From a virus (Duplodnaviria > Heunggongvirae > Uroviricota > Caudoviricetes), in the IMG/VR virus record IMGVR_UViG_2751185959_000007: a stretch of 13,881 nt of DNA; one strand, written 5' to 3'. Below the pieces are notes generated by a model. That model worked only from the letters and a program-made list of their open reading frames with translations. It did not search any database and was not told where the DNA came from. The number at the start of each line of letters is the position of its first letter. The stretch's first letter is position 1. The position numbers and the translations under genes are program-made. Positions 1 to 6,855 of the stretch are shown in pieces.

Positions 1-93
1 GAGTTCGGGGTCGAGGTAATCCCCCAGAGAAGTCAGTGGGTTACGCAGAGAATCGTAACGGGATACCAGATCAAGAGCCTGTCCAATGTGCAT
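1..93 (-). CDS. Partial ORF, only the first 31 codons visible (MHIGQALDLVSRYDSLRNPLTSLGDYLDPEL...), product unknown
   Basis: ATG at 93..91 on minus strand, open to window edge; no Shine-Dalgarno; the + strand frame 1..174 is also open, so strand and reality are uncertain. Confidence 0.25.
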   Translation of the reverse strand, partial: MHIGQALDLVSRYDSLRNPLTSLGDYLDPEL

Positions 94-96
94 AAA

Positions 97-130
97 AGAA
101 TCCGGAAACAAGTGAGCGTTTCCGGATTCT
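97..130. repeat. Perfect inverted repeat with 13-bp arms (AGAATCCGGAAAC / GTTTCCGGATTCT) and 8-nt loop; on the minus strand it is followed by TTTT and then the ATG at 93
   Basis: Direct base-by-base complementarity of 97..109 with 118..130. Confidence 0.6.
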
Positions 131-696
131 TACACAGCCACTGGATCGGTCAACTGATCCTTAACTGATCGGCATTACCCCGAAATGGAGCCGCCTTTCT
201 GAACAGATAACCCGCTGCGCCGTTTGTGTGTGTGATCCCAAACATAAGCACGGGGATGATAGCCGCTATCAGGCTGGTGGGCAATGCAATCAGTCTGGTT
301 CAGTGCGTTGCCATAACTGCGAAGTTCTCTCCTTTGATGAGTATTCTTTAAGGTACTTCTCAAGGGCAAAAGAACACGGCGCGAATCGTTCTGATTCATG
401 CTCTTTCTTTCTGCGTCGTCTTTTTCGTGCAGGTGATGTTTTTTCGGTTGATTCTTCGTTGGTCATTGTGTGCGCCTGTAAAGCAATGCGCCGTAGTACC
501 TCACACCACGGCGCTGATAGTTTTTATCCTTTGGGTTCTATGCCGCGTTGCTGTAATTCTTTGCGGATTATTCGCTTTATCCAGGCAGCAAGAGAATCAT
601 CGCCGTCCTGTTGTTGTGCCTTTTCCATCTTTTCCCGTAAGTCAGGATCTAAACGGAACTGGAACGGAGGATTACCACGCCTTTCGTTTTTGTGTG

Positions 697-1697: not shown

Positions 1698-1997
1698 ATG
1701 AAACTTAAATATTCTGGCTTAACTGCCAGTGGCAACACTCACCCTAAATTTACGCGCGGTGATATTTACCGCGACCAGTACGGCGGCATGGTAACGATTA
1801 AAGGCGTGGCAGAACGGCGCATCACCTACCGCCGTGAAGGTTACGAATATGATTGCGTGATGCCTGTTTATCAATTCCGGCGTGATTTCACGCTGGTACA
1901 GGCAGCGCCCCGCAGTAAACCAACCAGCAGGGAGAAAGCACGCGCCAATATTCAGGAAATAAAAAAGATGCTTAACGTATTCAGGGGTAAAAAATGA
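1698..1997 (+). CDS. Hypothetical protein (99 aa) immediately upstream of, and translationally coupled to, the primase gene
   Basis: SD GGAGAA at 1684..1689; stop TGA overlaps primase ATG (ATGA at 1994..1997). Confidence 0.6.
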   Translation: MKLKYSGLTASGNTHPKFTRGDIYRDQYGGMVTIKGVAERRITYRREGYEYDCVMPVYQFRRDFTLVQAAPRSKPTSREKARANIQEIKKMLNVFRGKK

Positions 1998-3742
1998 AAC
2001 TGGCACCGAACGTAAAAAAACAGCCACGCGGAATAAAACACAAAGACACAGAGGTAATTATCTTTGCGGGTAGTGATGCCTGGTCGCACGCGAAACAATG
2101 GCAGGAGCAGGATGGCCCCGCATCCGGCGATAATGTGCCGCCTGTGTGGCTTGGGCCAAATCAGCTTGCCGAACTTGATGCACTGAAAATTGTTCCGGAT
2201 GGAAAAAAACGCGTAAGGCTGTACCAGGCCGGAGAACTGGATTTGGTGGAGACCAAAAAGATTGGTCAGAAGCTGGCGGCGGCAGATATTCAGGACGCAA
2301 ATTTTTACCCCGAAGGAATGCACGTCCAGAAGTGTGAAAACTGGCGGCGCTATCTGAATGCTGAGCGTGAAAATATTGCCGCAGGGCTTACCATGCCGGA
2401 GCAGAAAAATACGCAACTGGCACAAATGGCAGACAGTGAGCGCGCGCAGCTGCTTGCCGAGCGCTTTGATGGCGTTTGTGTGCATCAGGAAAGTGAAATC
2501 GTTCACGTATGGCGCGGCGGGGTATGGTGTCCGGTCAGCACAATGGAACTTAGCCGCGAAATGGTGGTGATCTATTCAGAGCACAGGGCCACTTTCAGCA
2601 AGCGCGTAATCAATAACGCCGTGGAAGCGTTAAAAGTTATTGCCGAACCAATGGGCGAGCCGTCCGGCGATTTGCTGCCGTTCGCCAATGGTGCGCTTGA
2701 CCTGAAAACGGGGGAATTTTCCCCGCACACGCCGGAGAACTGGATCACCACGCACAACGGCATTGAGTACACGCCACCAGCACCAGGGGAGAACATCCGC
2801 GATAACGCGCTAAACTTTCATAAATGGCTTGAGCACGCAGCCGGAAAAGACCAGCGCAAGATGATGCGTATATGTGCCGCGCTGTACATGATTATGGCGA
2901 ACCGGTACGACTGGCAGATGTTTATTGAGGCCACCGGAGACGGCGGGAGCGGTAAAAGTACATTCACACACATAGCCAGCCTTCTGGCAGGGAAACAGAA
3001 CACGGTAAGCGCTGAAATGACATCGCTTGATGATGCTGGTGGACGTGCGCAGGTTGTCGGGAGTCGTCTTATCGTCCTGGCTGACCAGCCGAAATATACA
3101 GGCGAAGGAACGGGCATCAAGAAAATCACGGGCGGTGACCCCGTGGAAATTAACCCGAAATACGAAAAGCGTTTCACGGCTGTAATCAGGGCGGTGGTGC
3201 TGGCGACCAACAATAACCCGATGATATTCACCGAACGGGCCGGAGGTGTGGCACGTCGTCGCGTGATTTTCCGTTTCGACAATATCGTTAGTGAGGCCGA
3301 AAAAGACAGGGAGCTACCGGAAAAGATTGCGGCTGAAATCCCTGTCATTATCCGCCGATTGCTGGCGAACTTTACCGACTCTGAGAAAGCACGGGCTTTA
3401 CTACTGGAACAGCGTGACGGTGATGAAGCTCTGGCAATAAAGCAACAGACGGATCCGGTTATTGAGTTTTGCCAGTTCCTGAATTTTCTGGAGGAAGCAC
3501 GCGGCCTGATGATGGGCGGCGGTGGCGATTCAGTGAAGTACACGACCAGAAACAGCCTTTACCGCGTCTATCTGGCGTTTATGGCGTACGCAGGCAGGAG
3601 CAAACCGCTAAACGTAAATGACTTTGGCAAGGCTATGAAGCCAGCCGCGAAAGTTTACGGACATGAATATATTACGCGGAAAGTTAAGGGAGTAACGCAG
3701 ACTAACGCAATAACAACAGACGAGTGCGACGCGTTTTTATAA
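1994..3742 (+). CDS. Replication protein: P4-alpha-family primase/helicase (D5_N / SF3 helicase-type NTPase), 582 aa
   Basis: Long ORF with Walker A motif GDGGSGKST and downstream hydrophobic-D Walker B-like LIVLAD; overall resemblance to phage/plasmid primase P4-family C-terminal region; iteron array directly downstream. No canonical zinc-finger/TOPRIM primase motif recognised in the N-terminal 300 aa. Confidence 0.88.
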   Translation: MKLAPNVKKQPRGIKHKDTEVIIFAGSDAWSHAKQWQEQDGPASGDNVPPVWLGPNQLAELDALKIVPDGKKRVRLYQAGELDLVETKKIGQKLAAADIQDANFYPEGMHVQKCENWRRYLNAERENIAAGLTMPEQKNTQLAQMADSERAQLLAERFDGVCVHQESEIVHVWRGGVWCPVSTMELSREMVVIYSEHRATFSKRVINNAVEALKVIAEPMGEPSGDLLPFANGALDLKTGEFSPHTPENWITTHNGIEYTPPAPGENIRDNALNFHKWLEHAAGKDQRKMMRICAALYMIMANRYDWQMFIEATGDGGSGKSTFTHIASLLAGKQNTVSAEMTSLDDAGGRAQVVGSRLIVLADQPKYTGEGTGIKKITGGDPVEINPKYEKRFTAVIRAVVLATNNNPMIFTERAGGVARRRVIFRFDNIVSEAEKDRELPEKIAAEIPVIIRRLLANFTDSEKARALLLEQRDGDEALAIKQQTDPVIEFCQFLNFLEEARGLMMGGGGDSVKYTTRNSLYRVYLAFMAYAGRSKPLNVNDFGKAMKPAAKVYGHEYITRKVKGVTQTNAITTDECDAFL

Positions 3743-3756
3743 TTTTTTGTAATTGC

Positions 3757-3981
3757 TGTCTACCCTGTCTACCTGAGTAAAGAAAAATACATTTAATTCA
3801 GTGCATTAAGTTAGGTAGATAGCCTTTTTTTACTGTCTACCCACTATCTACCCTCTCTACCTGATTTTACCTGAATCAGACAGGGAGGTAGACACGGGGT
3901 AGATAGTGGATAAAAGCACTCTACCCCGCTGAAAGCAGCGCCATTACTGGCATGAGGGCCACTAAGGTAGATAAGGTAGAC
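3757..3981. repeat. Iteron array, probable origin of replication: at least 11 copies of the core TCTACC (extended (C)TGTCTACC / CTATCTACC), forward at 3757, 3766, 3834, 3846, 3856, 3920 and reverse (GGTAGA) at 3814, 3887, 3898, 3966, 3975
   Basis: Counted directly in sequence; forward copies cluster on the left, reverse copies on the right, with an AT-rich stretch (3775..3812) between; located immediately 3' of the replication gene as in SaPI and P4 replicons. Confidence 0.8.
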
Positions 3982-4030
3982 AAGGGGAGGCACAACTCAA
4001 AACTTTTTAAACGAGGGGGTAAAAATAAAT

Positions 4031-4309
4031 ATGCACACTTCAGGGAAATTTAATAAATCATTCAAAAAACGCAGAGACAGAACAGAACCGAAATATCGCG
4101 CGTTAGACATGACAGAGCACGCTTTAAAGGTGGCAATCAGAACGATAGACCGCCACGCGGGGGAAGGATACGCGAAAGCACATCCCGAACTGATAAGCGC
4201 ATTCATGACCACGACGGCGGCAAATTTTGCCACGCTGACAGAGCGGGAGATTGCCGAAGCGGAACAGGTAACAACAATCAACGTTAAAACCGGAGAGGTG
4301 GAATCATGA
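4031..4309 (+). CDS. Hypothetical protein (92 aa), first gene of a three-gene accessory operon
   Basis: Track ORF; GAGGGGG upstream of the ATG; stop overlaps next start (ATGA). Confidence 0.55.
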   Translation: MHTSGKFNKSFKKRRDRTEPKYRALDMTEHALKVAIRTIDRHAGEGYAKAHPELISAFMTTTAANFATLTEREIAEAEQVTTINVKTGEVES

Positions 4310-4611
4310 GCGAACCAAAATTTGGTGAAAAATTTTACAAGCACAACGGACGGATCACGATTCTGCAAATAAGCGCAGCTACACCAGGCTGGTGGGTTGA
4401 AACAGACGAAGGATCCTCACCCGTGGCATCATGGGAGCTTTGTGTGCTTAGTTACCCTGACCGCGATGTGTATCAGGATATTCTGCCTGTGATATCCACT
4501 GACAAAGGCATGAAACCCGTAGACATCAAAAACATGGGGTTTCAGTGCGTAATGCTCACTGAAAAAATGATGGAAGAGATGAAAAAGAACAATGCCGGAT
4601 CGCTTCACTGA
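4306..4611 (+). CDS. Hypothetical protein (101 aa)
   Basis: Track ORF; SD GGAGAGGTGG upstream; coupled to neighbours. Confidence 0.6.
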   Translation: MSEPKFGEKFYKHNGRITILQISAATPGWWVETDEGSSPVASWELCVLSYPDRDVYQDILPVISTDKGMKPVDIKNMGFQCVMLTEKMMEEMKKNNAGSLH

Positions 4612-4620
4612 GGTGGCAAT

Positions 4621-4782
4621 ATGACAGCACAAATTGCAGCTTACGGGCAGCTGGTGGGCGACCCGCTGGTAAAACAGAGCAGCAAGGGCACACCGGAGCC
4701 GCCAACGGAGAACTACGCAGACCTGAGAAATGCAGTAAATCGCACTTACGCAGACATGGGGCTGAGCAAATTAGCAGAGTAG
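4621..4782 (+). CDS. Hypothetical small protein (53 aa)
   Basis: ATG 4621 with SD GAGGTGG at 4610..4616; followed by a strong intrinsic terminator. Confidence 0.45.
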   Translation: MTAQIAAYGQLVGDPLVKQSSKGTPEPPTENYADLRNAVNRTYADMGLSKLAE

Positions 4783-4804
4783 GAATATCAGAACCACACC
4801 ACGC

Positions 4805-4830
4805 AGCCGGAGCAATCCGGCTTTTTGTTA
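4805..4830 (+). terminator. Rho-independent terminator: 7-bp stem AGCCGGA / TCCGGCT with GCAA tetraloop, then T-tract
   Basis: Stem 4805..4811 / 4816..4822, loop 4812..4815, T-run 4822..4826 then GTTATTTTTT. Confidence 0.7.
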
Positions 4831-4871
4831 TTTTTTGTAAATTATTTGTTCGTGGTTGTTCCACGTTGTTC
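4826..4871. repeat. Helically phased direct repeats: TGTTA, TGTAA, TGTTC, TGTTC, TGTTC starting at 4826, 4836, 4847, 4857, 4867 (10 to 11 bp period); last unit reads TGTTCAC
   Basis: Counted in sequence; candidate protein-binding array (terminase, replication or regulator). Confidence 0.5.
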
Positions 4872-4947
4872 ACTGAGCGGATCGGCATATTTTACCCGAA
4901 CTGAATCATGATTATTCTCGCCCGTGGTGCCAGGACGCTGGGGCCAC

Positions 4948-4995
4948 TTTCCCGCCTGTTAATGTGCTCGCCAATATTCATTACCAGGCGGGAAA
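4948..4995. repeat. Large dyad: TTTCCCGCCTGTTAATG / CATTACCAGGCGGGAAA (16 of 17 complementary; outer 11 bp perfect) with 14-bp spacer
   Basis: Base-by-base complementarity of 4948..4964 with 4979..4995. Confidence 0.6.
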
Positions 4996-5048
4996 ACGAT
5001 CGGTGCGATTACTGATTTCCTTATGAAAAACGGTTGAGTGTTTGCCGC

Positions 5049-5085
5049 GTCCTGGAGTTCCTTACTTAACCCCAGGACTTTTTTT
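5049..5085 (+). terminator. Terminator-like hairpin (GTCCTGG-N16-CCAGGAC) followed by T7, ending immediately before the capsid ATG at 5086
   Basis: Stem 5049..5055 / 5072..5078, T-run 5079..5085. The 16-nt loop is long for a canonical terminator; may be a regulated attenuator or a 5' UTR structure. Confidence 0.4.
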
Positions 5086-6243
5086 ATGCAGAGAATAATC
5101 GAATTACGCCAGCAGAAAACCGCCATTAAAAATCAGATGCGCGACATGCTGGAGAACGCTGAAAAAGAAAACCGCAGTCTTAACGATGCTGAGGGCGCAA
5201 AATTTGACGAATTACGCGCTAAAGCTGAATCCCTCGATAAAGACATTTCCCGCCTTGAAGCCATTGCAGACGAAGAGCGCAGCAAGCCAGGTAAAAGCAG
5301 CCAGACCACTGACCCCGCAGAACTACGTAACTACATTCTGACCGGTGAAACCCGCGCATTAAGTACAGGCGTTCCCGCTGATGGTGGTTATACCGTTATC
5401 CCTGAACTGAACACCGAAATCATGCGAATGCTGGCGGATGAATCCACCATGCGTCGCATCTGTACCGTGAAGAAAATCAGCAGCAACGAGTTTAAGCAGC
5501 TTGTTTCCGCTGGCGGTGCGACCGTTAACCACGGTGAAGAGGGTAAGGCACGCGAACAGACCAGCACCCCGCAGATTAACGAGGTGAGCATTAAGCTGTA
5601 TCCGGTCTATGCGTACCCGCGCACCACACAGGAAATCGTGGATTTTTCCGATGTGGACATCCTTTCATGGCTGACGGGTGAGATTGGCGACACCTTCACG
5701 GAAACCGAAGAAAGCGATCTGGTTGTGGGCGACGGTGACAAAAAAGCAAAAGGTTTTTTATCCGTACCCCGTGCAGAGAAGAACGACAAAGAGCGTGATT
5801 TTGGTACGTTGCAGGTAATTAAACCTTCCGAATCTCTGGCGTGGACATCTGCGGACCCGCTGATCGACCTGAAATTTGCATTACGTAAAAAATACCGCAA
5901 AAACGCGGTCTGAGTGGTTAACTCCACGACGGCGGCAAAACTTCAGAAGGTGAAGAACGCGAACGGTGATTATATCTGGCGCGACCGTTTACAGGCGGGT
6001 GATCCTGATACGTTGCTGGGCCTTCCGGTCGAATATCTGGAGTTTATGCCTGATAACGTTATTGCCCTGGGTGACTTCAAACGCGGTTACTACATTGTTG
6101 ATCACGAAACAGGTGTTCGCACCAGACCGGACAACCTGACAGAACCAGGATTCATCAAAATTTTCACGCAAAAATATTTAGGCGGTGGCGTGGTGGATTC
6201 GAACGCGATCAAGATTCTGGCACTGCCGGAAGACGACGATTAA
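5086..6243 (+). pseudogene. HK97-family major capsid protein interrupted by an in-frame TGA at 5911..5913 (N-terminal 275 codons 5086..5910; C-terminal 109 codons 5914..6243; 385 residues if the stop is read through)
   Basis: Track ORFs 5038..5913 and 5914..6243 are in the same frame, separated only by TGA. N-terminus MQRIIELRQQ... is a coiled-coil delta-domain-like region. Context NAV-TGA-VVNSTT is consistent with an ancestral TGG (Trp) codon. Confidence 0.85.
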
Positions 6244-6281: not shown

Positions 6282-6297
6282 TATGGGTGAAAAAATT

Positions 6298-6855
6298 ATG
6301 AAGAGTATGGAAATCCGGTCATCGGAAATCACCACCAGCGGAGCCGGTACGCTGACGGGCTACGTTGTTCGCTGGGATAAGCTTTCAGAACTGTTATGGG
6401 GTGAGTTTTACGAAAAATTCCAGCGGGGGGCGTTTACTGAATGGCTTGCGGCGGGTAATGACGTTCGCGGCCTGTATGAGCATGACCACAGCATGTTACT
6501 GGGGCGCACCCGTTCCGGCACGCTGAAACTGGAAGAGGACGAAACAGGGTTACGCTTTGAACTGACCCCACCGGATACCAGTACAGGGCGCGACGTTATC
6601 GAACTGGTTAAGCGTGGGGACATCTCGGGGATGAGCTTTGGCTTTCGCTCCCGTAAGGATGTATGGGATACCACAACAGATCCATGCGTGCGCACCGTGC
6701 TGGTGGCGGAACTGTACGAAATTACCGTTACATCGGTACCGGCTTACCCCGATTCCGGCGTGGAGCTGGCCCGCCGTTCCCTGTATGAGCAGCACCCCGA
6801 AAAAATGCCGCGTGCGGATAATCGCCGCTGGTGGGCGGATTTAGCGGGGGTGTGA
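6298..6855 (+). CDS. Prohead (head maturation) protease, HK97 family; start may alternatively be 6283 or 6307
   Basis: Sequence resembles HK97-type prohead proteases (…GYVVRWDK…GAF…); sits between capsid and portal genes; stop overlaps portal start. Confidence 0.85.
   Translation: MKSMEIRSSEITTSGAGTLTGYVVRWDKLSELLWGEFYEKFQRGAFTEWLAAGNDVRGLYEHDHSMLLGRTRSGTLKLEEDETGLRFELTPPDTSTGRDVIELVKRGDISGMSFGFRSRKDVWDTTTDPCVRTVLVAELYEITVTSVPAYPDSGVELARRSLYEQHPEKMPRADNRRWWADLAGV

What the first reader, a model, noticed from the sequence alone, without database searches (positions are those of the whole stretch)
4805..5088. Repeat-rich region bracketed by two terminators just upstream of the capsid gene
Between the terminator at 4805..4830 and the hairpin-T7 at 5049..5085 lie five TGT-core repeats at 10-bp phasing (4826..4871) and a 17-bp-arm dyad (4948..4995). 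The dyad's inner arm sequence CAGGCGGGAAAACG loosely resembles my recollection of the GC-rich P2/P4 cohesive end. A transcriptionally insulated, symmetric, repeat-flanked site is what a cos or terminase-recognition site, or a tightly regulated late promoter, would look like.
Basis: partly seen in the sequence, partly recalled or inferred. Interest (0 to 1): 0.55.

Follow-up and report, generated by a model that had tools for sequence, protein, structure and literature searches.

The report
Control region of satellite capsid operon
The interval is the conserved on-switch in front of the capsid and packaging genes of a phage satellite (a capsid-forming PICI): a terminator, a row of protein-binding repeats, a weak promoter and a folded RNA leader. 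It is not the site where the DNA is cut for packaging.

Summary
The window is an E. coli/Shigella-type capsid-forming PICI (cf-PICI), and here it is degenerate. The interval 4805-5088 is colinear upstream of the capsid gene in more than 140 related elements.

Its anatomy:
- An intrinsic terminator at 4805-4826.
- Five 6-bp TTGTNN direct repeats one helical turn apart (4825-4871).
- A weak sigma-70-type promoter: -35 TTTACC at 4891-4896, and -10 TATTCT at 4913-4918. The T, A and final T of the -10 are invariant in 40 of 40 distinct upstream sequences.
- A leader RNA of about 160 nt. It starts at hairpin A (4924-4947), continues with the "dyad" as hairpin B (4948-4995), and ends in hairpin C plus U7 (5049-5085), which buries the Shine-Dalgarno sequence.

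Compensatory base changes support the hairpins as RNA structures. The same repeat array recurs beside the att core and, in intact relatives, between int and alpA. That is the pattern of excisionase-type regulators such as 186 Apl, P2 Cox and P4 Vis. I infer an AlpA-dependent late promoter. No transcription start or protein binding has been measured.

The cos site is most likely in the HNH-terS gap. The replication origin is at 3750-3990.

The parts
4805..4826 (+). Intrinsic terminator that ends the upstream (replication/accessory) transcription unit. Its T-run overlaps the first repeat.
   Evidence: One search gives the stem (7 bp, 5 G-C) plus T-run. A sister lineage has a different but still complementary stem at the same place: GGCCCGGA..TCCGGG and GGCCTGGA..TCCAGG.
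4825..4871 (+). Array of five 6-bp direct repeats one helical turn apart: TTGTTA, TTGTAA, then TTGTTC three times. It includes the family-invariant box TTTTGTAAATTAT at 4833-4845. I infer this is the operator array of the island's excisionase-type regulator AlpA. The centres lie at about -56 to -98 from the predicted transcription start.
   Evidence: Repeats and their significance. The box lies at -215 to -258 from the capsid ATG in nearly all relatives. The same array sits beside the att core, and between int and alpA in intact relatives.
4891..4896 (+). -35-like hexamer TTTACC (predicted).
   Evidence: In 40 distinct upstream sequences aligned on hairpin A, TTT is 40/40 and C is 32/40 at this offset, and the spacer to the -10 is fixed at 16 nt.
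4913..4918 (+). -10-like hexamer TATTCT (predicted). It ends 5 nt before hairpin A.
   Evidence: T and A at hexamer positions 1-2 and T at position 6 are 40/40, and T at position 3 is 38/40. The match is too weak for the consensus scan, which suggests the promoter depends on an activator.
4924..4947 (+). Hairpin A, the predicted 5'-terminal stem-loop of the leader RNA. Its GACG loop is invariant.
   Evidence: Of 9 pairs, 4 have compensatory double changes and 99.6% of cells are paired. More than 120 IMG/VR contigs carry the majority 25-mer. In 70 of 70 testable contigs a capsid gene starts 120-146 nt downstream.
4948..4995 (+).
   Evidence: One search gives the arms. At least 12 unrelated stem sequences occupy the same position in relatives. 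Nine of 10 modelled pairs have compensatory changes.
4998..5017 (+). Small hairpin found only in the E. coli lineage of the leader.
   Evidence: Minimum-free-energy folds. Other lineages have a C-rich linker here instead.
5049..5085 (+). Hairpin C plus U7. The Shine-Dalgarno AGGA (5074-5077) lies in its 3' arm. It is terminator-like in the E. coli lineage only.
   Evidence: Its z-score is -4.5 to -5.4. The homologous hairpin GGUUUC..GAAACC in other lineages lacks a U-run but also covers the weak GGA Shine-Dalgarno.
5086..6243 (+). HK97-fold major capsid gene, first gene of the packaging operon. In this window it is broken by TGG>TGA at 5911-5913.
   Evidence: Pfam Phage_capsid on the intact relative. 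The nonsense change G5913A is shown.
12278..12339 (+). Second copy of the repeat array (TTGTGT, TTGTTC, TTGTTT at a 10-bp period, 12278-12303), followed 17 nt later by the att core GGTGTAGTTAATGGTGTAG (12321-12339) at the island's right end.

Best explanation
The interval is the cis-regulatory region of the cf-PICI packaging operon (capsid-protease-portal-connectors-HNH-terS-terL).

Reading 5' to 3':
1. A terminator (4805-4826) stops transcription coming from the replication/accessory genes.
2. Five 6-bp operators spaced one DNA turn apart (4825-4871) bind several copies of an island-encoded winged-helix protein. AlpA is the most likely candidate. It belongs to the excisionase/recombination-directionality family and is the master activator of Gram-negative PICIs.
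3. The bound protein helps RNA polymerase use a weak sigma-70 promoter (-35 at 4891-4896, -10 at 4913-4918).
4. Transcription starts at about 4924-4926. The resulting leader of about 160 nt begins directly with a stable stem-loop (A), continues with a long hairpin (B, the 'dyad'), and ends in a hairpin (C) that pairs the Shine-Dalgarno sequence. In E. coli-type islands hairpin C is followed by U7 just before the capsid AUG.
5. The leader probably stabilises the long mRNA and sets how much capsid is transcribed and translated.

Shown by computation:
- Conservation, colinearity and uniqueness of the module.
- Invariance of the promoter hexamers.
- RNA covariation in the hairpins.
- Recurrence of the operator array at the att core and in the int-alpA gap.

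Inferred:
- The transcription start.
- Which protein binds the array.
- That binding activates rather than represses.
- What the leader does.

In this particular window the island is decayed, so the region is probably a relic here.
For: Context. The window is a cf-PICI next to phoQ. Pfam confirms the capsid, protease, portal, HNH, Terminase_4 TerS, TerL and D5-type primase.

Conservation.
- The region is 95-99% identical in hundreds of E. coli genomes.
- It is colinear in Rosenbergiella, Citrobacter and Erwinia; in Gilliamella only a degraded box is recognisable.
- It is also colinear in about 75 IMG/VR loci.
- It travels with the packaging module and not the replicon. The window has a primase and L001 a RepA helicase, yet their intergenic regions differ at one base.

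Promoter. TTTaCt-16 nt-TATnTT lies at a fixed offset from hairpin A. The diagnostic -10 positions are 40/40.

Leader RNA.
- A covariance model finds it once per locus, always abutting the capsid ATG (71 hits; window 4922-5091 at 70.9 bits).
- 88.6% of cells are paired against 79.0 +/- 0.5 in shuffles.
- 183 cells carry double changes against 55.6 +/- 7.4 in shuffles (0 of 500 shuffles reach this).
- Slid controls give 31-47% paired.
- Whole-leader z-scores run from -2 to -6.8.

Operators.
- TTGT three times at a 10-bp period occurs twice in the window (0.01 expected).
- In the intact relative L001 it occurs at four places (0.00 expected): left of the attL core, in the int-alpA gap on the opposite strand, upstream of the capsid gene, and in the attR arm.
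- In L096 the capsid array and the int-alpA array are 24/25 identical.
- Islands with other att cores (L097, L106, L149, L158, L160) show the same distribution.

Association with AlpA.
- AlpA gave the highest correlation with repeat divergence among 14 proteins (0.455; TerS gave 0.096).
- GTT[CT] arrays upstream of the capsid gene occur in 13 of 18 islands with type II AlpA and in 3 of 32 with type I.

Literature.
- Operators of recombination-directionality factors (RDFs) are direct repeats one turn apart. At least three adjacent operators are needed. Apl, Cox and P4 Vis also regulate promoters far from att through att-like arrays (PMC7498355).
- AlpA has a TorI/Xis-like fold and is required for excision (PMC10803314).
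- AlpA activates its own promoter and is required for induction (PMC6092414; 10.1101/2022.09.08.507074).
- A strain overexpressing alpA alone was used to purify EcCIEDL933 capsids (10.1101/2025.02.11.637232, methods).
Against: - No transcription start, footprint or reporter data exist for this region in the papers I could read.
- The promoter is weak by consensus (7 of 12 matches) and was not called by the scan.
- The link to AlpA is circumstantial. Int and AlpA co-vary, so the Int arm-binding domain could be the binder instead.
- Three loci (L109, L112, L113) combine a type I AlpA with a TTGTTC-type capsid array. L109 and L110 share the same array but carry different AlpA types.
- In type I islands I found no second copy of the capsid array.
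- The TTTGTAAAT unit is invariant across all AlpA and Int types. A co-evolving island protein does not explain this.
- If hairpin C plus U7 is an efficient terminator, an additional antitermination step would be needed in E. coli-type islands.
- Pair counts on an alignment made with the covariance model lean towards the modelled structure.
Confidence: 0.65

Rival explanations
1. The interval is the cos or terminase-recognition site. TerS would bind the phased repeats, and the dyad or its neighbourhood would be cut.
For: The repeats are helically phased and a long dyad follows. The cos site has not been mapped in the papers I read.
Against: - The dyad stem sequence is completely different in sister lineages while pairing is kept. 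Their TerS, TerL and HNH proteins are homologous.
- TerS shows the lowest correlation with repeat divergence (0.096).
- The HNH-terS gap carries a nearly invariant element: GGGGTGGGGGAGG...CACCnCCnGCCCCCTC plus A/T-tracts. This is the usual position of cos in HNH-dependent HK97-type phages, by my own knowledge.
- The linear, virion-derived record LR881103.1 ends and starts inside that gap, with about 70 nt missing.
- The same repeats occur at the att sites, which points to recombination proteins and not terminase.
Confidence: 0.04
2. The repeats are arm-type binding sites of the island's tyrosine integrase, not AlpA sites. Int would then regulate the capsid promoter, or the array would be a relic of an att arm.
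For: The arrays lie directly beside the att core at both island ends. Integrases of this kind bind clustered arm sites, by my own knowledge. Int divergence also correlates with repeat divergence (0.28), and Int co-varies with AlpA.
Against: - All units of an array point the same way at one-turn spacing, which is the stated hallmark of RDFs (PMC7498355).
- Arrays also sit in the int-alpA gap, and in L097 immediately flanking alpA, where AlpA is known to autoregulate (PMC6092414).
- alpA overexpression alone yields capsids (10.1101/2025.02.11.637232).
- AlpA correlates better than Int (0.455 against 0.276).
Confidence: 0.15
3. The key control is attenuation. The promoter fires, the 160-nt leader RNA ends at hairpin C plus U7 (5049-5085), and the capsid operon is made only when an antiterminator lets polymerase read through. 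The antiterminator could be island-encoded, helper-encoded, or the leader RNA itself. This would resemble lambda pR'-tR'/Q or HK022 put.
For: - Hairpin C followed by 7-8 U is conserved in all E. coli-lineage variants and directly abuts the AUG.
- Other lineages have a covarying G+C hairpin plus T-run elsewhere in the module.
- Hairpins A and B are adjacent stem-loops with an invariant loop.
Against: - In the other lineages the T-run hairpin lies upstream of the conserved -35/-10 pair. There it insulates the promoter rather than attenuating the leader.
- Their hairpin C has no U-run, so attenuation cannot be the conserved function.
- No Q-, N- or put-like element was found by Rfam.
- The P. aeruginosa antiterminator called AlpA is a different, Q21-like protein (PMC9371919, PMC7969949).
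Confidence: 0.15
4. The direct repeats are bound by a host response regulator of the OmpR/PhoB family (for example PhoP, CpxR, ArcA or OmpR), tying capsid expression to host physiology.
For: Such regulators bind hexamer direct repeats at 10-11 bp spacing. By my own knowledge, the consensus sites are GTAAA-N5-GTAAA for CpxR and TGTTTA-N5-TGTTTA for PhoP. The invariant box contains GTAAA, and one lineage has TGTTTAC. A host factor would explain why the box is invariant across AlpA types.
Against: Identical arrays lie at the att arms and around alpA within the same island, and the repeat class is associated with the island's AlpA type. This argues for an island-encoded binder. I ran no test against any host regulator's motif.
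Confidence: 0.06
5. The repeats are iterons of the island's replication origin.
For: Short direct repeats next to AT-rich DNA resemble iterons.
Against: At least 12 copies of TGTCTACC/GGTAGA in both orientations lie at 3750-3990, immediately after the primase gene. That is the canonical position of a PICI origin (PMC6092414). The capsid-upstream region is the same in islands with unrelated replication proteins.
Confidence: 0.02

Closest known systems
Dual-purpose recombination-directionality factors and their operator arrays (coliphage 186 Apl, P2 Cox, satellite P4 Vis)
   Same: The operators are 6-bp direct repeats about one helical turn apart, with three or more adjacent copies. They are present both at att and at a promoter far from att, with similar sequence and arrangement (PMC7498355). 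P4 Vis is an AlpA homologue that regulates P4 late promoters; I saw only the title of Polo et al. 1996, cited in PMC2603039.
   Different: Here the array lies upstream of the promoter (about -56 to -98), as an activator site would, and in front of a capsid/terminase operon. Apl and Cox operators overlap the promoters they repress. Binding has not been shown here. One unit (TTTGTAAAT) is invariant across AlpA types.
Lambdoid late-gene leader (pR' - 6S RNA - tR' with Q) and HK022 put RNA
   Same: A promoter is followed by a structured leader of 150-200 nt and, in E. coli-type islands, by a hairpin plus U-run in front of the morphogenesis genes.
   Different: There is no Q gene, no recognisable Q-binding or pause element, and no put-like match. 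The U-run is lineage-specific. The conserved feature is burial of the Shine-Dalgarno sequence, not termination.
5'-terminal stem-loops that stabilise E. coli mRNAs (for example the ompA 5' UTR)
   Same: Hairpin A starts within 0-2 nt of the predicted 5' end. By my own knowledge, that arrangement protects mRNAs from 5'-end-dependent RNase E attack.
   Different: The transcription start is only predicted. The invariant GACG loop suggests a specific recognition beyond simple protection.
cos region of HNH-dependent HK97-type phages and cos-type SaPIs
   Same: The island does have the HNH, TerS and TerL proteins of this packaging type.
   Different: The element with cos-like properties is in the HNH-terS gap. 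In this window it survives as a remnant at 9303-9347, next to a 98-bp deletion. It is not at 4805-5088.

Membership tests
RDF (Xis/Apl/Cox/Vis/AlpA-type) operator array | Short operators arranged as direct repeats spaced about one DNA turn apart, with at least three adjacent copies | tested here: met
   Five TTGTNN units with spacings of 10, 11, 10 and 10 bp. The phased pattern occurs twice against 0.01 expected.
RDF (Xis/Apl/Cox/Vis/AlpA-type) operator array | The same kind of array is present at the element's attachment site | tested here: met
   Window 12278-12303 lies 17 nt from the att core at 12321-12339. L001 has arrays by both att cores and in the int-alpA gap. L097 and L106 have an array by an att core at the right end; L097, L104, L149 and L158 have arrays upstream of int.
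RDF (Xis/Apl/Cox/Vis/AlpA-type) operator array | Cooperative binding by the cognate RDF protein | not testable with these tools
   Only indirect evidence is available. AlpA (PF05930) gives the best correlation with repeat divergence, and there is a 13/18 against 3/32 association, with exceptions.
Sigma-70 promoter | -35 and -10 hexamers with a 16-18 nt spacer; A at position 2 and T at position 6 of the -10 are conserved | tested here: met
   TTTACC-16 nt-TATTCT. T, A and T at hexamer positions 1, 2 and 6 are 40/40, and TTT of the -35 is 40/40. Only 7 of 12 positions match consensus, so the scan did not call it.
Sigma-70 promoter | An experimentally mapped transcription start | not testable with these tools
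   No transcription-start data were found in the papers searched.
Conserved cis-regulatory RNA structure | Base pairs maintained through compensatory substitutions in diverged homologues | tested here: met
   16 of 31 pairs have double changes. 183 cells carry them against 55.6 +/- 7.4 in shuffles (0 of 500). 88.6% of cells are paired against 31-47% when the partner is slid. RNAalifold on a plain MAFFT alignment independently recovers hairpin A.
Any Rfam family | A match to a curated covariance model | tested here: not met
   A search of 3600-5400 at E <= 10 returned only chance microRNA or snoRNA matches far below the gathering scores.
Rho-independent terminator (5049-5085) | A G+C-rich hairpin immediately followed by a U-run, conserved as such | tested here: inconclusive
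   This is met in the E. coli lineage (10 of 11 pairs plus U7-8). The homologous hairpin in other lineages has no U-run.
cos site of an HNH/TerS/TerL packaging system | A conserved cleavage sequence that co-occurs with the terminase and lies next to the terminase genes | tested here: not met
   The dyad sequence is not conserved. The conserved candidate lies between HNH and terS, and the virion-derived record breaks there.
PICI replication origin | An iteron cluster next to, and co-varying with, the pri/rep gene | tested here: not met
   The iterons are at 3750-3990. The interval is the same in islands with different replicases.

The most novel reading that the evidence does not exclude
The leader of about 130-170 nt (hairpin A with its invariant GACG loop, a covarying hairpin B, a C-rich linker, and a hairpin C that hides the Shine-Dalgarno sequence) could be a previously undescribed riboregulator. 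It would gate capsid synthesis in capsid-forming satellites by responding to a helper-phage or island factor, through antitermination at hairpin C/U7 or by unmasking the ribosome-binding site. Capsids would then be made only when helper tails are on the way. Together with AlpA operators shared between att and the late promoter, one small excisionase-like protein would couple excision directly to morphogenesis.
Probability: 0.2. Interest if true: 0.65.

Novelty: new variant of a known kind. Interest (0 to 1): 0.45.

Why it matters
Capsid-forming PICIs were described only recently, and how their packaging operon is switched on has not been reported in the papers I could read.

This analysis gives an explicit, testable map:
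- Which 47 bp should bind the regulator.
- Which hexamers should be the promoter.
- Where the mRNA should start.
- Which hairpins are under selection.

It also predicts that the excisionase-like AlpA acts directly at the late promoter through the same operators it uses at att. It relocates the likely cos site to the HNH-terS gap. This is useful for engineering these islands as delivery vehicles and for annotating them.

The conserved 25-nt hairpin A sequence and the TTTGTAAAT box are practical markers of the family in the sample I checked. In 70 of 70 testable contigs carrying the hairpin, a capsid gene followed.

Tried and rejected
- **Rfam** search of 3600-5400 at E <= 10 found nothing real.
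- **Phage collection** searches (blastn 'distant' mode) with the interval matched only the capsid coding part. With the cos gap as query, only LR881103.1 and a 1.6-kb fragment matched.
- **P. aeruginosa AlpA.** I first suspected a link to this antiterminator. I rejected it because that protein has a Q21-like fold, is considerably larger (DNA-contact residues numbered to 142), and recognises GGGACG between the -35 and -10 (PMC9371919, PMC7969949). It is unrelated to the 62-aa PF05930 AlpA of PICIs.
- **The invariant box as a promoter element.**
  - As a -10 (TAAATT): its last base varies between T, A and G.
  - As a -35: no TAnnnT follows at 16-18 nt.
- **A leader peptide** starting at ATG 4908: the ATG is absent in several lineages.
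- **PerC as the activator:** it is present in only 18 of about 80 loci and is truncated in this window.
- **Plain MAFFT plus RNAalifold** recovered only hairpin A, because the 3' arm of hairpin B was misaligned. A covariance-model alignment was needed.
- **Second copies of the array in type I AlpA islands.**
  - A 30-nt scan found none.
  - Those islands carry other 10-bp arrays upstream of alpA (ACAGCATTCA, CGACACGTAA, TGTTCATC).
  - Their relation to the capsid array is unclear.
- **The 10/10 complementarity** between 4910-4919 and 5091-5100. Its 5' arm lies upstream of the predicted start and is not kept in all E. coli-lineage variants. I did not build on it.
- **PDB search with AlpA** found only an unpublished 'AlpA family' entry, 8C3T.
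Full report
**What the window is.** PGAP annotation of a near-identical relative identifies the genes (NZ_CP023165, locus L001; 99.8% identical over 4700-5200). Pfam scans agree. The window holds a capsid-forming phage-inducible chromosomal island (cf-PICI) of the EcCIEDL933 type, inserted next to phoQ:

| Coordinates | Feature |
|---|---|
| 1994-3742 | D5-type primase |
| to 4782 | small accessory ORFs |
| 4783-5085 | intergenic region containing the finding |
| 5086-6243 | HK97-fold capsid gene |
| 6283-6855 | prohead protease |
| 6857-8068 | portal |
| 8023-8696 | head closure and connector |
| 8696-9136 | HNH |
| to 9684 | terS |
| to 11329 | terL |
| 12421-13881 (- strand) | phoQ |

The cf-PICI family and this gene order are described in 10.1101/2022.09.08.507074. 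The authors note that the region before the packaging operon is variable (10.1101/2025.02.11.637232). Neither paper describes a promoter or maps cos.

**The observation.**
- The terminator is at 4805-4822 plus a T-run.
- The five TTGTNN repeats are at 4825, 4835, 4846, 4856 and 4866.
- The dyad is at 4948-4964/4979-4995 with 16 of 17 positions complementary.
- The hairpin 5049-5078 is followed by T7 and then the ATG at 5086.

Three TTGT at an exact 10-bp period occur twice in the window against 0.01 expected. The + strand RNA folds with z = -6.35.

**The module is conserved as a unit.**
- Fetching relatives through the capsid protein gave five further genera (Gilliamella keeps only a degraded box) and 80 IMG/VR loci.
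- Upstream of nearly every capsid gene is the box TTTTGTAAATTAT, 215-258 nt before the ATG.
- Three more repeat units follow at a 10-bp period. They read TTGTTC in the window's lineage and GTAC/TTTAC/TTAC in another.
- The whole stretch from the box to the capsid ATG is colinear.
- It travels with the packaging module. The window has a primase and L001 has a RepA helicase plus intact SSB and PerC, yet their intergenic regions differ at one base, 4968.
- A scan for the majority 25-mer of hairpin A hit more than 120 viral contigs, mostly 14-18 kb long. In 70 of 70 testable contigs a capsid homologue starts 120-146 nt downstream. In 65 of those 70 the GTAAAT box lies at the expected offset.

**The promoter.** I aligned 40 distinct upstream sequences on the first base of hairpin A.
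- The hexamer at -11 to -6 reads T(40) A(40) T(38) n T/C T(40).
- TTT at -33 to -31 is 40/40, followed by A/T and then C (32/40).
- The spacer between the two hexamers is always 16 nt.
- Hexamer positions 1, 2 and 6 are the ones that matter most in a sigma-70 -10 element, by my own knowledge.
- In the window this gives -35 TTTACC (4891-4896), -10 TATTCT (4913-4918) and a predicted start at 4924-4926, the base of hairpin A.
- The match to consensus is poor (7 of 12), which is why the scan missed it. It suggests the promoter needs an activator.
- The invariant box is not itself a -10, because its sixth base varies.
- In the E. coli lineage a terminator precedes the repeats. In the other main lineage the upstream ORF runs up to the box, and a covarying G+C hairpin plus T-run sits between the repeats and the -35. 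In both arrangements the promoter is insulated from upstream transcription.

**The leader RNA.** Single-sequence folds of about 50 distinct leaders give the same architecture:
- Hairpin A has a GACG loop.
- Hairpin B immediately follows it.
- A linker comes next.
- Hairpin C has a 3' arm that contains the only Shine-Dalgarno-like purines.

The evidence that these are selected RNA structures:
- RNAalifold on a plain alignment recovers hairpin A, with 4 of 9 pairs changed on both sides.
- A covariance model built from 23 sequences finds one hit per locus, 71 in all.
- On that alignment 88.6% of cells pair, against 79.0 +/- 0.5 in column shuffles and 31-47% when partners are slid.
- 183 cells carry double changes against 55.6 +/- 7.4 (0 of 500 shuffles).
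The caveat is that an alignment fitted to a model leans towards that model.
- At least twelve unrelated stem sequences occupy the hairpin B position.
- Whole-leader z-scores are -2 to -6.8.
- There is no Rfam match.

The U7 after hairpin C exists only in the E. coli lineage. What is conserved is pairing of the Shine-Dalgarno sequence.

**What binds the repeats.** In the intact relative L001 the phased TTGT pattern occurs in four places, with 0.00 expected:
- Left of the attL core (1982-2015).
- In the int-alpA gap on the opposite strand (3349-3392).
- Upstream of the capsid gene (9147-9170).
- In the attR arm (16542-16565).

In L096 the capsid array and the int-alpA array are 24/25 identical. 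The window keeps the attR copy at 12278-12303, 17 nt from the core at 12321-12339. Islands with other att cores show the same distribution: L097, L104, L149 and L158 upstream of int, L097, L106 and L160 at the right end, and L097 also around alpA.

This is the published signature of recombination-directionality factors that double as regulators. Their operators are direct repeats one helical turn apart, at least three adjacent copies are needed, and att-like arrays occur at distant promoters (186 Apl, P2 Cox, P4 Vis; PMC7498355).

The case for AlpA as the binder:
- PICI AlpA belongs to PF05930.
- It has a TorI/Xis-like fold and is needed for excision (PMC10803314).
- It activates its own promoter (PMC6092414).
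- It is required for cf-PICI induction (10.1101/2022.09.08.507074).
- A strain that only overexpresses alpA was used to purify EcCIEDL933 capsids (10.1101/2025.02.11.637232).
- Among 14 island proteins, AlpA divergence correlates best with repeat divergence (0.455; TerS 0.096).
- GTT[CT]-type capsid arrays occur in 13 of 18 type II AlpA islands and 3 of 32 type I islands.

The weaknesses:
- Int co-varies with AlpA.
- Three hybrid loci break the association.
- Type I islands show no second copy of their capsid array.
- The TTTGTAAAT unit is invariant whatever the AlpA type.

I therefore put the promoter-and-leader reading at about 0.75-0.8, AlpA as the binder at about 0.5, and the composite statement at 0.65.

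**Why it is not cos.**
- The HNH-terS gap is almost invariant across the family. It reads GGGGTGGGGGAGGTTTTCAGGAC, then about 30 variable nt, then CACCnCCnGCCCCCTCAAATTTTTAyGCACGGTGATTTTTTTGAAAATAA, then terS.
- GenBank LR881103.1 (vB_KppS-Ant, 'induced prophage', 16,548 bp, linear) is a Klebsiella cf-PICI. Its record ends at ...GGTTTTCAGGAC and begins 22 nt before terS. It lacks about 70 nt that integrated relatives have between those points. A virion-DNA assembly broken at physical ends would look like this.
- This is indirect evidence. Together with the RNA-type covariation of the dyad and the poor TerS correlation, it leaves the cos reading at about 0.04.

**Why it is not the origin.** The origin is at 3750-3990, where at least 12 TGTCTACC/GGTAGA iterons follow the primase gene.

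**State of this copy.** The island in the window is decayed.
- An IS4 end occupies 1-192, where alpA would be expected.
- The ORF at 4621-4782 is an SSB-PerC fusion remnant.
- The capsid gene has TGG>TGA at 5911-5913.
- A 98-bp deletion between CCCCGCC microhomologies removes most of the putative cos region and the terS start.

The regulatory region itself differs at a single base from that of an intact island.

**Verdict.**
- The cos interpretation is rejected.
- The late-promoter interpretation is supported and refined.
- The module is a new variant of a known regulatory design: an RDF operator array driving a distant promoter, joined to a leader RNA that has no described family.
- Interest is moderate.

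Noticed in passing
window 5911-5913: The major capsid gene carries an in-frame TGA where the intact relative has TGG (Trp276; G5913A). This splits it into 5086-5913 and 5914-6243.
   Followed up: yes
window 9303-9372 (junction about 9347/9348); L001 13604-13726: There is a 98-bp deletion between CCCCGCC microhomologies relative to L001. It removes most of the HNH-terS intergenic region and the terS ATG plus its first codons. In intact relatives this gap is almost invariant, G-rich, near-symmetric and A-tract-flanked. The virion-derived record LR881103.1 is broken there. It is the best cos candidate.
   Followed up: partly
window 1-192: The left end of the window is the terminus of an IS4 element (97.9% identity to IS4 copies in many E. 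coli genomes). It lies just where alpA would be expected, so int and alpA are displaced or lost from this copy.
   Followed up: partly
window 3750-3990: There are at least 12 copies of the iteron TGTCTACC/GGTAGA(T/C)A in both orientations around a T-rich core, immediately after the primase gene. This is the probable replication origin of the island. It also explains the microRNA-like chance matches from Rfam.
   Followed up: partly
window 4621-4782: A 53-codon ORF fuses the N-terminus of the island's SSB to the C-terminus of its PerC-family protein. Both genes are intact in L001. Other relatives (L002) carry an extra insert of about 360 bp with a small ORF at the same spot, so this is a hot spot of rearrangement just upstream of the terminator.
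   Followed up: partly
window 12278-12339; L001 1970-2049 and 16542-16607: Array plus att core (GGTGTAGTTAATGGTGTAG) occurs at both island ends in the same orientation. The DNA left of attL therefore already looks like a phage-side arm, perhaps a remnant of an earlier island at the roxA-phoQ site.
   Followed up: no
L146 2180-2415, L134 786-1039, L174 7129-7324: Islands with type I AlpA carry three consecutive tandem arrays with a 10-bp period upstream of alpA: ACAGCATTCA 4-9 times, CGACACGTAA about 5 times, and TGTTCATC about 5 times. Their function is unknown. TTGTTCAT resembles the invariant TTGTAAAT box.
   Followed up: no
window 4910-4919 and 5091-5100: There is a perfect 10-nt complementarity between the -10 region (GATTATTCTC) and capsid codons 2-5 (GAGAATAATC). 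In sister variants with CCG at codon 2 the pairing shifts to TATTCTCG/CGAGAATA. The helix would form only in transcripts reading in from upstream and would then cover the start region. It could also be chance.
   Followed up: partly
L155/L139/L146/L154/L116/L127, immediately upstream of alpA: In type I AlpA islands the alpA Shine-Dalgarno GGAGG lies in a hairpin (CCTCCAC...GTGGAGG) whose loop holds two TGTTT-like units. This hints at translational or operator control of alpA itself.
   Followed up: no
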